Part shown: piece after piece, positions 37,546-42,966 of the stretch
Numbering within the stretch: the first letter of the stretch is position 1
How the letters are laid out: the number at the start of each line of letters is the position of its first letter
Source of the DNA: a virus
Lineage: Duplodnaviria > Caudoviricetes
Strand: one strand, 5' to 3'
DNA length: 64,000 bases
IMG/VR virus record: IMGVR_UViG_3300031414_000005
The notes under the pieces: model-generated
Database searches by the model: none
What the model was told of the DNA's origin: nothing
The model's input: the letters and a program-made list of their open reading frames with translations, nothing else
Position numbers and translations under genes: made by a program

Positions 37546-37966
37546 CCTGGCACATGGTTGTAACTGCATGACCACAATGGGTGCCGGTATTGCTAAGGGG
37601 TTGCGTGACCGCTGGCCTCAGGTATACCACGCCGACTGTCAAACCGTGAAAGGGGATCACACCAAGCTGGGTAAGTTTACCTATGCTGATGTGGGTAGTA
37701 AACGTATCTACAATTTGTATTCGCAGTACAAGTATGGTCGGGACAAGAAATACTTTGCCCCTCGTGCTTTCCAAATCGCGCTGCTACGGGTGTTTTTCGA
37801 CATGAGCATCCGTGAGCGTTACAGTCTCATCATCCCCTGGATTGGTACCTACAATGCCGGGGGTACCCGTGAAGAGATTATGCGCATTCTGGAAGACACG
37901 GTCCCGACTGAGATCAACTTGTTTATTGGGGAACTGGATTATGCCAATCACCAAAAACGGGTTTGA
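37487..37966 (+). CDS. macrodomain (Poa1p/T4 Tk.4-like) ADP-ribose-processing protein
   Basis: LAHGCNCMTTMGAGIAKGL, IYNLYSQ and IPWIGTYNAGG. Confidence 0.88.
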   Translation: MITVLPNTNVLKYFDQHDVDLAHGCNCMTTMGAGIAKGLRDRWPQVYHADCQTVKGDHTKLGKFTYADVGSKRIYNLYSQYKYGRDKKYFAPRAFQIALLRVFFDMSIRERYSLIIPWIGTYNAGGTREEIMRILEDTVPTEINLFIGELDYANHQKRV

Positions 37967-38210
37967 ATGGTTTACCCCGGATGAAATCTGGCCAGTAATT
38001 CTGGCCGCACCGCAAGTGCCTATCCGCATCACCACCGCTGGATGGGAGGACGGTAAAGAGGTAAACCTTCGCACCAAAGGCTTAAACAACCAGGGGTCCA
38101 TGGGTTACTACCTGATTCACAACACCCTGGACATGGAACCGTACTGGCGGTTTATCACCGAACCCCCAACCCCACCCTTTGTGCTGCGCGAGCAACTGGG
38201 TTTTTCATAG
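37941..38210 (+). CDS. hypothetical protein, paralog of 38221
   Basis: MPITKNGFEWFTPDE..IRITT. Confidence 0.7.
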   Translation: MPITKNGFEWFTPDEIWPVILAAPQVPIRITTAGWEDGKEVNLRTKGLNNQGSMGYYLIHNTLDMEPYWRFITEPPTPPFVLREQLGFS

Positions 38211-38220
38211 AGGAACCCGC

Positions 38221-38481
38221 ATGCCCATCCATAAAGACGGTGTGGACTGGTTGACACCCGAAGAAGCCCACCAAACGTTGCTGGCACAGAACGGTAAACT
38301 GGTTCGTATCACAACCGAGGGGCTGACCTACGACCCGGACGAGATCTGTATTGTCACGGTGTGTGGTTACAACGGTGGTGGCACAACTGAGCAGTTTTTG
38401 CAGAACTCCCCGTACTGGCGTGTCGATACTTTTGGTCCGCCTTCCTATGTCCTTAATGAGAGCATAGACTTCCAATGTTAA
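38221..38481 (+). CDS. hypothetical protein, paralog of 37941
   Basis: MPIHKDGVDWLTPEE..VRITT; GAGGA RBS. Confidence 0.7.
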   Translation: MPIHKDGVDWLTPEEAHQTLLAQNGKLVRITTEGLTYDPDEICIVTVCGYNGGGTTEQFLQNSPYWRVDTFGPPSYVLNESIDFQC

Positions 38482-39337: not shown

Positions 39338-39696
39338 AACGTAAAACCCTGAACGCATTCTTTGACAACCTGAAAAAGCTGGAAATGTCTCGCCTGATTC
39401 GTGACAACAAAGATTACACCCTGGGCAACAACATGAAGGGTGACGGTGTGCATGCCGATATCGTGCGTCTGGTTGCGGAGCTGCGCGAGTTCGCTGAGAA
39501 GCACCTGACCAATGGCACTGACCTTGGTGAAGTGATGGCTGAAGCCGCAAACCGTAAGTTGCAAATCCTGGACCACCTGAAGAGCAACCTTGATATGTCC
39601 ACCAACACGGTGACCTATCGCCTGGAAACCCGCAAAGGCAAGTTTGTGTACTGGGTGAAAGATATGAGCATGAAACCTGCGCTGGAAGTGGCGTAA
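39334..39696 (+). CDS. hypothetical protein
   Basis: Start overlaps the upstream stop. Confidence 0.7.
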   Translation: MKRKTLNAFFDNLKKLEMSRLIRDNKDYTLGNNMKGDGVHADIVRLVAELREFAEKHLTNGTDLGEVMAEAANRKLQILDHLKSNLDMSTNTVTYRLETRKGKFVYWVKDMSMKPALEVA

Positions 39697-40127
39697 TGGA
39701 GCTGCTCTGGCTGACTGTTGACAGTGGTGCGAGCTATGCTCCTGAAATCACCGCAATGATGAAGGCCCTGCGCACCGAAGAGAATGTCATGACGAACACC
39801 AAAAAGGTGGAGCGTGCGAAACCCTATCATCAGGAGTTTCGTGACCGTGACATGTGCATTCTGCTGGCAATGGAAAAGGGTGATGTCGCTGGCATGATTT
39901 CTTTTACCCCCGGCCTGATGGGGATCATCTATCGGCTGTATGTCAAACCGGTGTATCGCCGTCGTGGGGTGGGTGACCTGCTGATGCAGAGCACGAAAGA
40001 GTATATGAAGCGCCGCGGGAGTATTGAGTTCACCGTGAACACCATCCCCGCTAATGAACCGGCAATTGCACTGTACAAGAAGTACGGGTTGACGCCGGAG
40101 TACCTGTCGCTACGCGGCAAAGTTTAA
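39696..40127 (+). CDS. GNAT family acetyltransferase
   Basis: IYRLYVKPVYRRRGVG; NEPAIALYKKYG. Confidence 0.88.
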   Translation: MELLWLTVDSGASYAPEITAMMKALRTEENVMTNTKKVERAKPYHQEFRDRDMCILLAMEKGDVAGMISFTPGLMGIIYRLYVKPVYRRRGVGDLLMQSTKEYMKRRGSIEFTVNTIPANEPAIALYKKYGLTPEYLSLRGKV

Positions 40128-40622: not shown

Positions 40623-40660
40623 ATGGCCCTTCGGGGCCATATCCTTTTCTTTCTTTTTTG
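40623..40660 (+). terminator. intrinsic terminator
   Basis: ATGGCCC-TTCG-GGGCCAT then a T-rich tract. Confidence 0.7.
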
Positions 40661-40670
40661 GACTGTTATC

Positions 40671-41804
40671 ATGTCAAAAACTATTCTTACCCCCGAGCAC
40701 CTCAATTCCCTGATTATCAAAGAAGAGTATGTTGAGAACACCGTGGGTGGCAAGGTCTGGTTAAGCTGCTATCTCTGGGTGGCCCCGACACACGCAATTG
40801 TGGGTGAACCGTGCAGTGCAATGTACCCGGAAACCAGCGACCCGGCAAAAGCGCGTCAGGTGGCCCGTAAACGTGCGTTTGATCAACTGTGGGCGTTGGA
40901 AGCCTACCGTTTGATGGTCAACGAACACCGCGAGTCCAATCACTCAGTAAGCGCCCTGGAAGAACGTATCCGTCGGATTGAAGTCGCATTACAGATGCCG
41001 GGTGCAGTGCTGACCTATGCAGAAAAGCTGGATGCGGCCATGCAAGATACACCCCCGACCGCCGTAACCCCACCGGAAACCCCGGCAAACGGACCGGGTG
41101 TACTGACCACCCGCGAACTCACCCCGGTTAGCGAACTCACCCCCGAGATTTCTCGTTACCTGGTGCGGCTGGAAGATGAAGTCACCAATATCTGCGGTGC
41201 CGTGATGAAACTCAAACTGTATGCCGCAGGTCCCGTGACTGAAGACCTCATGGGTCACTTCAGTACCGAGTTCCAGGAACAACTGCGTATTGAAGCTAAC
41301 GCCCCGGGGTTTGATGCCGACAGTTTTGATGTGTATGCGTTCTGCCGTAACCTGGAGGTTGCTGGTATCCGGGTGGAAGCCGATATCCTGAACCGCAGCA
41401 ATACCGCCTGGGTTGACAGCATGACCATGGAGAAAGTCACGGCGGGTGACACCCCTGACGATGGCGCCGCCCCGCAGTCAACAATTGAGCCCGTTATTGT
41501 GGGCGATGGCCTGTTGCAAGGTTTCCGGGTGACCGAATACCTGGAAGAGTTCGAGCAGGCGAAATCGGACATCGAGAAGTCCCTGTCCCAGCGTGCCATG
41601 TTATCTGTGCGGTTTGGTATTGACTATGCGCATGATGAAGAAGGCCGGAAGATCTATTGGGAACTGGATGAGCTGAAAAACCGGTTTGATAATGCACTCA
41701 GCAATTACAACTTTGCGGTGGCCAACCCCAGCGAAGAGATCAGCGACTTCCTGGTCGAGGTCTTTGCATTGCCGAAAGAAAACTTCAAGGTAACGTTGCA
41801 TTGA
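40671..41804 (+). CDS. multidomain protein with N-terminal N4 gp49/Sf6 gp66-like (Acb4-like) domain
   Basis: IIKEEY..SC.L..IVGEP.SA..PE..D....QVARKRAFDQLWALEAYRL. Confidence 0.6.
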   Translation: MSKTILTPEHLNSLIIKEEYVENTVGGKVWLSCYLWVAPTHAIVGEPCSAMYPETSDPAKARQVARKRAFDQLWALEAYRLMVNEHRESNHSVSALEERIRRIEVALQMPGAVLTYAEKLDAAMQDTPPTAVTPPETPANGPGVLTTRELTPVSELTPEISRYLVRLEDEVTNICGAVMKLKLYAAGPVTEDLMGHFSTEFQEQLRIEANAPGFDADSFDVYAFCRNLEVAGIRVEADILNRSNTAWVDSMTMEKVTAGDTPDDGAAPQSTIEPVIVGDGLLQGFRVTEYLEEFEQAKSDIEKSLSQRAMLSVRFGIDYAHDEEGRKIYWELDELKNRFDNALSNYNFAVANPSEEISDFLVEVFALPKENFKVTLH

Positions 41805-41808
41805 TAAT

Positions 41809-41849
41809 TTAGAATGCAGGTCAGTTTAAGTCTATATAACCAATATGAA
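41809..41849 (+). promoter_or_regulatory. early promoter (class B)
   Basis: TTAGAATGCAG-N12-CTATATAAC-N4-ATGAA. Confidence 0.75.
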
Positions 41850-41889
41850 TACAGAGCAATAGTGCTTTGTACCTATTGGAGATATCCTC

Positions 41890-42291
41890 ATGAAACTGAC
41901 CAAACTGCGCTTTGTCCTGTCTAAAGAGTTCATCGAACTGTGTGCTGCAAATATCGACCGTGGTATGGCGACGGTTATCCGCCTGGCTGAACGTCGTTAT
42001 GTCTTCGCTAACCCGAAGGCCACTGAAGACATCGATATCGATGAGTCTGATGTGAACCGCGCGCTGAGCATCGCGAAGAACGAAGACGCACGTTTTGACC
42101 GCCTGGCCAACGTGTACAGCTGGATTCGTAAACAGTCTAGCAAAGCGGCTTTAACCTGGAGTAACTATCGTGCATACATCACTGCTAACGCATTGGAAAA
42201 ACTGTGGGTCGTCACCGGTGTCTATAAAGAAGCCGCTGATGTCGAAGTCGAGTTTAACCATATCGTTGGCATGGTCGCTGATGCAAAGTAA
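41890..42291 (+). CDS. hypothetical early protein (monocistronic)
   Basis: GGAG RBS; has its own promoter and terminator. Confidence 0.8.
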   Translation: MKLTKLRFVLSKEFIELCAANIDRGMATVIRLAERRYVFANPKATEDIDIDESDVNRALSIAKNEDARFDRLANVYSWIRKQSSKAALTWSNYRAYITANALEKLWVVTGVYKEAADVEVEFNHIVGMVADAK

Positions 42292-42458: not shown

Positions 42459-42638
42459 ATGTCCACGACCAAATCACACGTTAAAGATGCCAAGAAATTT
42501 GCTAACCTGTCCCGTGCGCGTCAAGTTGAAGTCCTGATGGGCGTACGCCTGACTTCGGTTCAACGCGACCTCATTGAATACCTGGCTGATGGAGATCACC
42601 TTGCAGCTATACACCGTTCAAATCGCCCGGTATCGTAA
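42459..42638 (+). CDS. 59-aa hypothetical protein
   Basis: Hand translation MSTTKSHVKDAKKFANLSRARQVEVLMG...; AAGG RBS. Confidence 0.55.
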   Translation: MSTTKSHVKDAKKFANLSRARQVEVLMGVRLTSVQRDLIEYLADGDHLAAIHRSNRPVS

Positions 42639-42966
42639 AGCATTGGCCCTGGGTGTCCCGTTTGTGGACACCTCCATCAAAACCGGGAAGTCAGAATTCA
42701 TGCCGACCTGGGACATGGTGATGGGGTACAAGCAAGGTACTGTCAGTGAAGAACGTTACACCGAGATGTATTACGACCTGATGCGCCAACGCTATCGAGC
42801 CAATCGCCAATGGTGGTTGGCTTTTTTACGCGATCAGCCCAGCGCAGCCATTGGGTGCTTCTGTACACCGGGTGCGTTCTGTCACCGTTTATTGCTCGTA
42901 GACATCTTCAGGAAAATCTGTGAGCGCAACGATATTCCTTTTGAATACGCAGGTGAATTAACATGA
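42589..42966 (+). CDS. DUF488-like protein
   Basis: LYT.QI, FMPTWDMV..YK, GCFC.PG.FCHR.LL motif. Confidence 0.6.
   Translation: MEITLQLYTVQIARYRKALALGVPFVDTSIKTGKSEFMPTWDMVMGYKQGTVSEERYTEMYYDLMRQRYRANRQWWLAFLRDQPSAAIGCFCTPGAFCHRLLLVDIFRKICERNDIPFEYAGELT

What the first reader, a model, noticed from the sequence alone, without database searches (positions are those of the whole stretch)
40671..41804. Acb4-like (gp49/gp66) sponge domain fused to a 300-residue unknown extension
Seen: the N-terminal ~85 aa follow the gp49/gp66 pattern (I..EEY, C.L, VGE..SA..PE..D, AR..AFDQLW.LE.Y.L), then a coiled-coil, a Pro/Thr linker and further acidic domains. From recollection, the anti-CBASS sponge Acb4 belongs to this family and is normally a small stand-alone protein. 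Inference: a divergent, multidomain anti-defence protein, possibly with altered nucleotide specificity or tethered to a structure.
Basis: partly seen in the sequence, partly recalled or inferred. Interest (0 to 1): 0.65.

Follow-up and report, generated by a model that had tools for sequence, protein, structure and literature searches.

The report
Acb4-type sponge with orphan tail
An uncultured giant phage encodes a 377-residue protein whose first ~90 residues belong to the known Acb4 family, which soaks up bacterial alarm nucleotides, while the remaining ~290 acidic residues match nothing known and are exchanged independently of the sponge part among sister phages.

Summary
Window 40671-41804 (+) is one 377-aa gene. 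Residues ~6-87 form a divergent PF13876 (Phage_gp49_66 = Acb4) domain. After it come a short conserved helix, a Pro/Thr linker and an acidic C-terminal region of ~220 aa.

- **Family evidence:** This copy scores just under Pfam's cut-off, but its three more distant orthologues pass. A family profile finds the solved Acb4 (PDB 9E4W, E 5e-8). 9E4W is also the best structural match of the model (Z 7.4). Four copies are predicted to form an Acb4-like tetramer (0.87 against 0.02 for controls; this may be memory of 9E4W).
- **Pocket:** It is remodelled. Only 1 of 10 SPO1 ligand residues is kept, and helix α4 is Arg-rich. Ligand binding and specificity are therefore open.
- **Tail:** It evolves under purifying selection (dN/dS 0.04-0.14). 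It has no sequence relative among 1.84 billion representatives and no fold match.
- **Mosaic:** The sponge domain is a swapped cassette, at 57-68% DNA identity in a 95-100% background.
- **Precedent:** Extended Acb4 proteins are already on record (Kuttervirus 241-264 aa; Chang et al. Table S3), so the architecture is not new in kind.

This scan has met Acb4-family genes before on other DNA. I class this one as a new variant of a known kind, of moderate interest.

The parts
40623..40660 (+). Conserved terminator-like hairpin (ATGGCCCTTCGGGGCCAT) plus T-run, directly upstream of the gene
   Evidence: The scan finds a 7-pair stem followed by a T tail. The hairpin is invariant in four phages, including the divergent L038. 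The T-run length varies by +/-1 nt, so the ATG at 40623 is not the start.
40671..41804 (+). CDS of 377 aa (P0001), an Acb4-family domain plus an orphan extension
   Evidence: Full-length orthologues have 97, 85, 76 and 54% identity. The same fused ORF lies on single long contigs in three further studies.
40686..40931 (+). PF13876 / Acb4-like domain, residues 6-87
   Evidence: Pfam and PHROG hits. Family profile to PDB 9e4w, E 5.2e-8. Best structural match 9e4w_A, Z 7.4, rmsd 2.8 A over 73 residues. Tetramer score 0.87 against a best control of 0.02.
40680..40950 (+). Swapped allele block (cassette) covering the sponge domain
   Evidence: DNA identity to L001 is 57-68% here against 95-100% in the flanks, with a sharp left edge at codon 4. 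dS is 1.8 here against 0.15-0.5 elsewhere, and dN/dS is 0.19.
40950..40991 (+). Short conserved amphipathic helix, residues 94-107 (LEERIRRIEVAL)
   Evidence: L96, E97, R99-E104, A106 and L107 are invariant in five orthologues. It is modelled as a helix but with pLDDT under 50.
41046..41141 (+). Pro/Thr-rich variable linker, residues 126-157
   Evidence: 50% P+T+S. It carries indels and is 37-62% identical between lineages. pLDDT is 25-38.
41142..41420 (+). Extension lobe D2, residues 158-250, an acidic alpha/beta domain
   Evidence: pLDDT is 71-92 when the C-terminal part is folded alone. dN/dS is 0.09-0.14. No fold match stands out.
41421..41486 (+). Second variable acidic linker, residues 251-272
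   Evidence: 24-35% identical to P0005, with an indel.
41487..41801 (+). Extension lobe D3, residues 273-377, acidic and mostly helical, poorly modelled
   Evidence: dN/dS is 0.04-0.06. pLDDT is 25-67. No sequence relative lies outside the clade.
41828..41866 (+). Repeated intergenic element downstream, heading the next gene
Evidence: In three DNA runs a second contig or place carries the same 39 nt with 4 differences (table 8).

Best explanation
This is a multidomain member of the Acb4 (PF13876) family in an uncultured jumbo phage. Its nearest cultured kin are the Erwinia Agricanvirus phages such as RAY and Ea35-70.

**Shown or predicted here**
- Residues ~6-87 adopt the Acb4 dsRBD-like fold.
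- They are predicted to assemble into the Acb4 pinwheel tetramer through the two interfaces described for SPO1 Acb4: a beta-sheet sandwich, and the end of helix alpha4 packed against the beta2-beta3 loop.

**Inferred**
- The tetramer sequesters a nucleotide immune signal and so blunts a signalling defence of the CBASS type.
- The pocket is rebuilt. The equivalents of F48, F62 and I66 are H, S and K, and alpha4 reads ARQVARKRAF. The ligand probably differs from SPO1's 3'3'-cGAMP and may be richer in phosphate.
- Each protomer continues through a conserved short helix and a flexible Pro/Thr linker into an acidic two-lobed module (158-377) found only in this phage clade. The tetramer would therefore display four such arms.
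- My best guess is that the arms are a second, independent binding module. They may hold the sponge at a particular place or bind a host protein with four-fold avidity.

Sponge domain and tail have separate histories, so they behave as exchangeable modules.

**Confidence by step**
- Acb4-family membership of the N-domain: about 0.9.
- Tetramer: about 0.75.
- Still a nucleotide sponge: about 0.55.
- Tail is a second binding or targeting module: about 0.35.
For: **Family**
- Orthologues pass the Pfam cut-off.
- PHROG 322 matches at E 2e-13.
- A 21-sequence profile headed by this protein finds Acb4 9e4w at E 5.2e-8.
- 9e4w_A is the top match of 48,161 PDB representatives (Z 7.4, rmsd 2.8 A, 73 residues). 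dsRBD, hibernation-factor and RF1 folds follow, as Chang et al. report for Acb4.

**Tetramer**
- ipSAE is 0.87 against a best control of 0.02. That mark was reached by 20 of 30 solved homo-pairs and 1 of 23 single chains.
- Partner pLDDT is 86, and the runs agree in at least 90% of contacts.
- The interface residues are 19-47, and 72-86 with 37-43.
- The family-invariant residues Y20, C33, A65, F70, W74, L76, E77 and Y79 are kept.

**Real, selected fusion**
- dN/dS is 0.04-0.14 in the tail.
- The same ORF occurs in four orthologous contigs and on single contigs in three further studies.

**Modularity**
-.

**Context**
- The neighbours are accessory genes (GNAT, phrog_2586, phrog_11150, DUF488-N3a).
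- In phage RAY the gene before the phrog_11150 homologue is unrelated to this one, and RAY has no PF13876 match.

**Literature**
- All eight tested Acb4 homologues bound 3'3'-cGAMP.
- N4 Acb4 binds c-di-AMP at 111 nM.
Against: - This copy falls below Pfam's gathering score (22.4-25.6 against 27 bits).
- Only K36 of the ten SPO1 ligand-contact residues is kept.
- The family-wide motif NGF...DPxNF...G..AY reads PTH...YPETSD...A..AR here, so ligand binding could be lost rather than changed.
- The tetramer score may reflect memory of the solved 9E4W complex.
- Nothing shows what the tail does. No homologue, Pfam, PADLOC, PDB or fold match was found, and D3 is poorly modelled.
- No binding or infection data exist.
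Confidence: 0.55

Rival explanations
1. The Acb4-like domain has lost nucleotide binding and serves only as a tetramerisation scaffold. The active part is the orphan acidic tail, for example a four-armed inhibitor or decoy of a host protein.
For: Pocket residues conserved from SPO1 to proteobacterial phage homologues (F48, F62, I66) are replaced, while the core and interface residues are kept. The tail is under stronger purifying selection than the N-domain between the window and L001.
Against: Allele B of the N-domain is 85-91% conserved even in P0005, whose tail is only 58-66% identical. That fits a constrained function better than a mere scaffold. K28 and an Arg-rich alpha4 are kept in both alleles, as expected for a phosphate-binding site. 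All eight tested family members bound ligand.
Confidence: 0.22
2. The tail targets the sponge to a structure. It could be packaged in the virion and injected with the DNA, or docked on the phage nucleus or the cell envelope, so that it acts early or locally.
For: The phage belongs to the jumbo group that packages many non-structural proteins. Its nearest relatives are the Agricanvirus phages, at 43% identity on a virion protein. The flexible linkers suggest a tether.
Against: The gene lies in an accessory block, not among virion genes. No proteomic or localisation data exist.
Confidence: 0.12
3. The acidic tail is a nucleic-acid mimic that blocks a DNA- or RNA-binding defence protein, as Ocr and ArdA do. 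This would make the protein a two-in-one anti-defence factor.
For: The tail has a net charge of -26 and pI 4.4 over 290 residues, in an anti-defence context.
Against: The acidity is moderate (18% D+E). Fold searches gave no similarity to any known mimic. No repeat of charge spacing is evident.
Confidence: 0.08
4. The fusion is an artefact: two genes joined by a sequencing or assembly error, or a decaying gene.
For: None, beyond the rarity of the architecture.
Against: The same uninterrupted ORF stands in the window, in four orthologous contigs at down to 54% identity, and on single contigs of 22-53 kb in three other studies. dN/dS is well below 1 along its whole length.
Confidence: 0.01

Closest known systems
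Acb4 (anti-CBASS 4) of Bacillus phage SPO1, gp1.3, PDB 9E4W; Pfam PF13876 Phage_gp49_66
   Same: It has the same dsRBD-like fold and is the top structural match. Profile-level homology holds. The predicted tetramer uses the two interfaces described for Acb4. It is phage-encoded in an accessory region.
   Different: SPO1 Acb4 is 96 aa, against 377 here. Identity is 19%. Nine of ten ligand-contact residues differ. This protein has an Arg-rich alpha4 and a 290-aa acidic tail that SPO1 lacks.
Extended PF13876 proteins of Ackermannviridae (Kuttervirus, e.g. Salmonella phage allotria gp51, 241 aa; PHROG 322)
   Same: These are the nearest relatives of the N-domain outside the clade (35-37% identity, E 2e-13). 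They share the same N-terminal position of the domain, followed by a C-terminal extension. They also share the EAYR(A/L)MV ending and the GG insertion before beta1.
   Different: Their ~150-aa extension is unrelated to this tail. They keep the family's NGF and DPxNF motifs, which are lost here.
Other long PF13876 members in Chang et al. Table S3 (e.g. Delftia phage RG-2014, ~345 aa; Pseudomonas phage YH6 / Pa2, 146 aa with a helical tail)
   Same: An N-terminal Acb4 domain followed by a long lineage-specific C-terminal extension. The authors suggest such extensions give 'additional functions'.
   Different: The C-terminal profile found no relative outside this clade among 1.84 billion representatives, so none of these tails is detectably related to this one. 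None of these extensions has been characterised.
N4 gp49 (N4 Acb4 homologue)
   Same: It is the family namesake from a phage of Gram-negative hosts. It binds c-di-AMP at 111 nM and triggers the PanDA counter-counter-defence.
   Different: It is a small stand-alone protein, and no ligand is known for the present protein.

Membership tests
Acb4 / PF13876 (Phage_gp49_66) | Match to the Pfam HMM at or above the gathering score (27 bits) | tested here: inconclusive
   This copy scores 22.4 bits (25.6 for residues 1-110 alone) across the full profile. Orthologues P0003, P0004 and P0005 of the same gene score 36-38 bits. PHROG 322 matches at E 2e-13.
Acb4 / PF13876 (Phage_gp49_66) | Homology to the solved founding member (SPO1 Acb4, PDB 9E4W) | tested here: met
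   A profile of 21 N-domains headed by this protein hits 9e4w_A at E 5.2e-8 and 35.9 bits. The next hit has E 0.72.
Acb4 / PF13876 (Phage_gp49_66) | dsRBD-like alpha-beta-beta-beta-alpha core with a long C-terminal helix | tested here: met
   The AF2 model has H8-14, E15-25, E28-37, E42-44 and H58-89. Its best match among 48,161 PDB representatives is 9e4w_A (Z 7.4, rmsd 2.8 A, 73 aligned), followed by dsRBD, HPF and RF1 folds. The Z is moderate and the N-domain pLDDT is 55-72.
Acb4 / PF13876 (Phage_gp49_66) | Homotetrameric pinwheel built from a beta-sandwich dimer and an alpha4 'joint' interface | tested here: met
   Prediction only. Four copies of residues 1-95 score 0.87 against a best control of 0.02 (the mark was reached by 20 of 30 solved homo-pairs and 1 of 23 single chains), with pLDDT 86. 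Contacts are 19-47 with 19-47, and 72-86 with 37-43. The result may be memory of 9E4W.
Acb4 / PF13876 (Phage_gp49_66) | Conserved ligand-pocket residues (SPO1 K36, F48, E49, V56, Y57, F62, N63, I66, T70, K81) | tested here: not met
   The equivalents are K28, H41, A42, A50, M51, S56, D57, K60, V64 and A75, so only K36 is kept. F48, F62 and I66 are conserved in most proteobacterial phage homologues but not here. The pocket also varies across the family, so this lowers the claim 'same ligand', not the fold membership.
Acb4 / PF13876 (Phage_gp49_66) | High-affinity binding of a cyclic dinucleotide immune signal, and rescue of phage from CBASS | not testable with these tools
   This needs EMSA, ITC and plaque assays as in Chang et al..
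Any known family for the C-terminal 220 aa | Sequence or fold similarity to a described family | tested here: inconclusive
   No Pfam, PHROG, PADLOC or PDB sequence match. No relative outside the clade among 1.84 billion representatives. The best structural rows are noise-level (Z 5.8 to a designed helical repeat; Foldseek E above 0.2; TM 0.32 or less). Half of the model is of low confidence.

The most novel reading that the evidence does not exclude
The orphan acidic tail is a new anti-defence or targeting module carried on a tetrameric sponge. The protein would then be a four-armed, bifunctional immune-evasion factor of a jumbo phage. The two circulating sponge alleles (A and B, 59% identical) would bind different immune nucleotides, giving a cassette system for switching signal specificity while keeping the tail.
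Probability: 0.2. Interest if true: 0.75.

Novelty: new variant of a known kind. Interest (0 to 1): 0.45.

Why it matters
Acb4 sponges are a major way for phages to silence nucleotide-based immunity. Their extended forms have been noticed but never studied.

This gene offers a clean case. It has a confidently assignable sponge core with a rebuilt, Arg-rich pocket, so it is a candidate for a new ligand specificity. That core is joined to a conserved, selected module with no relatives. The natural variants swap the sponge cassette and the tail independently.

Testing the two alleles and the tail could show how sponge specificity evolves. It could also show whether sponges are tethered or combined with a second inhibitory activity in jumbo phages. 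If the domain binds nothing, it would be an example of a sponge fold reused as an oligomerisation scaffold.

Tried and rejected
- **Upstream start at 40623.** Rejected. It lies in a conserved hairpin, and 1-nt T-run indels break the frame in relatives.
- **A diversity-generating template or a paralogue for the variable N-domain.** blastn and tblastn found none in the window.
- **Local positive selection as the cause of N-domain divergence.** Rejected. dS is saturated at 1.8 and dN/dS is 0.19, so an old allele was recombined in.
- **Internal duplication.** D2 against D3, and D1 against D2 or D3, give hhalign probabilities under 1%. The resemblance of LTPEHLNSLIIKEEY to LTPEISRYLVRLEDE is not significant.
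- **Sequence searches with this protein alone.** A direct search against the PDB, and a six-sequence profile, did not find Acb4. Only the 21-sequence profile did.
- **Word-based search for shorter relatives of residues 1-95.** No candidates.
- **Megablast of the locus against GenBank phages.** No match.
- **Positional counterpart in phage RAY (gp135, 438 aa).** Unrelated. RAY has no PF13876 match, and RAY gp134 is not a homologue of the upstream gene.
- **Fold and atlas searches of the tail.** Nothing significant. Portal and adaptor proteins recur among the weak rows (E above 0.5, TM 0.3 or below). I treat this as noise.
- **Full-length AF2 model.** Poor, with mean pLDDT 50.
- **RNA evidence.** One 258-nt metatranscriptome contig covers 41772-42029 only. 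It does not show that the gene is transcribed.

Full report
**The gene.** Window 40671-41804 (+) encodes a 377-aa protein.
- An in-frame ATG at 40623 is not the start. It sits in a hairpin plus T-run (ATGGCCCTTCGGGGCCAT followed by a T-rich tail) that scores as an intrinsic terminator.
- That hairpin is invariant in four phages, while the T-run length changes by one base in two of them and breaks that frame.
- Gene calls in the relatives start at the equivalent of 40671.

**The genome.** The window is phage DNA. It carries tail-fibre, virion, helicase, RNase H, UvsX-like and thymidylate synthase genes.
- A virion protein is 43-44% identical to those of the ~270-kb Erwinia jumbo phages AH06, RAY and Ea35-70.
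- The locus has no close DNA match among GenBank phages.
- Earlier notes of this scan call the genome a phiKZ-like, nucleus-forming phage. I confirmed only the kinship to jumbo phages.
- Near-identical DNA occurs in phyllosphere, soil, fermentation and viral metagenomes from 13 studies.

**The N-terminal domain.**
- *Pfam.* PF13876 matches residues 6-81 over nearly the whole profile, but at 22.4 bits, under the 27-bit cut-off. The orthologues P0003, P0004 and P0005 score 36-38 bits.
- *PHROGs.* PHROG 322 matches at E 2e-13. The three best PHROG families have profiles of 239-336 positions, so they are themselves extended proteins.
- *Literature.* Chang et al. (bioRxiv 10.1101/2024.12.30.630793) state that SPO1 Acb4 belongs to PF13876.
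- *SPO1 copy.* I located SPO1 Acb4 as gp1.3, 96 aa.
- *Profile search.* A profile of 21 N-domains headed by this protein finds PDB 9e4w (Acb4) at E 5.2e-8.
- *Fold.* The AF2 model's best match among 48,161 PDB representatives is 9e4w_A (Z 7.4, rmsd 2.8 A, 73 residues). dsRBD, hibernation-factor and RF1 folds follow, the same neighbours the paper reports.
- *Tetramer.* Four copies of residues 1-95 score 0.87 against a best control of 0.02. That mark was reached by 20 of 30 solved homo-pairs and 1 of 23 single chains. Partner pLDDT is 86, and the runs agree in at least 90% of contacts.
- *Interfaces.* The contacts fall into a beta-sheet interface (19-47) and an alpha4-to-beta2/beta3-loop interface (72-86 with 37-43). 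These are the two interfaces described for Acb4. Because 9E4W is solved, this pass may reflect likeness rather than independent evidence.

**The pocket.**
- Aligned to SPO1 Acb4, the ligand residues K36, F48, E49, V56, Y57, F62, N63, I66, T70 and K81 correspond to K28, H41, A42, A50, M51, S56, D57, K60, V64 and A75.
- F48, F62 and I66 are conserved in most proteobacterial phage homologues but not in this clade.
- The clade also replaces the family motifs NGF, DPxNF and G..AY with PTH (or PNF), YPE..D and (A/G)R..AR. Its alpha4 carries four or five Arg/Lys residues.
- The residues invariant across the family (Y20, C33, A65, F70, W74, L76, E77, Y79) are kept, and most lie in the predicted interfaces.
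- I infer a retained assembly with a rebuilt, more basic pocket. Whether it binds a different nucleotide or none cannot be told here.

**The extension.**
- *Layout.* After the domain come a short helix (94-107, invariant in all orthologues), a Pro/Thr linker (126-157), lobe D2 (158-250), a second variable linker (251-272) and lobe D3 (273-377).
- *Charge.* The extension has a net charge of -26 and pI 4.4.
- *Selection.* It is under purifying selection, with dN/dS 0.04-0.14.
- *Sequence searches.* A profile of the tail found only P0005 among 1.84 billion representatives. Pfam, PADLOC and PDB sequence searches were empty.
- *Fold searches.* D2 folds with pLDDT 71-92 and D3 poorly. Four fold libraries gave nothing above noise.
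- *Internal repeats.* There is no internal repeat, and the tail has no relation to the N-domain.

**Mosaic history.** Only four full-length homologues exist among 5.8 billion proteins. They are syntenic: GNAT, phrog_2586, this gene, phrog_11150, DUF488-N3a.
- Against L001, DNA identity is 95-100% in the flanks and the tail but 57-68% across 40709-40948. The left edge is sharp at codon 4.
- There dS is 1.8, against 0.15-0.5 elsewhere, and dN/dS is 0.19. This is an old allele brought in by recombination, not local positive selection.
- By segment, the N-domain has two alleles: A (P0001, P0002) and B (P0003, P0004, P0005), 57-60% identical to each other.
- Allele B is 85-91% conserved even in P0005, whose tail is only 58-66% identical.
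- Contigs from three further studies hold the whole stretch in one piece at 97-99% identity. The differences listed for them show none between 40645 and 40931, which suggests allele A, although 57 further differences were not shown.
- The two alleles are each other's nearest relatives, and the next nearest are the Kuttervirus proteins at about 35%. The exchange was therefore within this fused-gene lineage.

**How unusual is the architecture?** Not unprecedented.
- Chang et al. note extensions in some homologues.
- Their Table S3 includes members of 146-195 aa and one of about 345 aa, from Delftia phage RG-2014.
- Kuttervirus phages carry 241-264-aa forms. Viral contigs hold forms of 126, 136, 158 and at least 207 aa.
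- What is particular here is the size and orphan status of the tail, the rebuilt pocket, the jumbo-phage setting and the cassette exchange.

**Slot.** In phage RAY the gene before the phrog_11150 homologue (gp135, 438 aa) is unrelated to this gene, and RAY has no PF13876 match. The position behaves as a variable accessory slot.

**Verdict.** The gene is a new variant of a known kind: an Acb4-family core with an orphan, selected, tethered acidic module. The function of the tail and the ligand of the core remain to be tested.

Noticed in passing
window 37941-38210 and 38221-38481 (+): Two adjacent small genes are tandem paralogues (37% identity, E 1.7e-14). They share an MPIxK(N/D)G..W(F/L)TP(D/E)E start and a PYWR motif. 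No family was assigned.
   Followed up: partly
window 40623-40660: A hairpin plus T-run upstream of the gene is invariant in four phages, even where the upstream gene has diverged completely (L038). It is a conserved terminator or RNA element at the boundary of the slot.
   Followed up: partly
window 41828-41866: A 39-nt intergenic element recurs at a second place in the same phage genomes (second contigs in three runs, 4 differences).
   Followed up: no
window 41772-42029: A 258-nt contig from a phyllosphere metatranscriptome matches at 100%. It spans the 3' end of this gene, the intergenic element and the start of the next gene.
   Followed up: no
window 42574-42966 (+): Two genes downstream lies a DUF488-N3a protein (PF22751, 30.6 bits; PHROG 2450, E 2e-39), and a GNAT acetyltransferase lies at 39696-40127. 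The block looks like an accessory or counter-defence region.
   Followed up: no
L037 (Erwinia phage RAY) 3023-4336: RAY gp135 (438 aa, no Pfam match) occupies the position of this gene, before the phrog_11150 homologue, but is unrelated. It is another orphan in the same variable slot.
   Followed up: partly
L027 / L008 (IMGVR_UViG_3300020047_009529): This PF13876 protein has a different C-terminal extension (...GYWVQYQDGYTSWCPKEVFEQ...). The same motif stands at the N-terminus of clostridial members in Chang et al. Table S3, so it is a second domain that recurs with Acb4 on either side.
   Followed up: no
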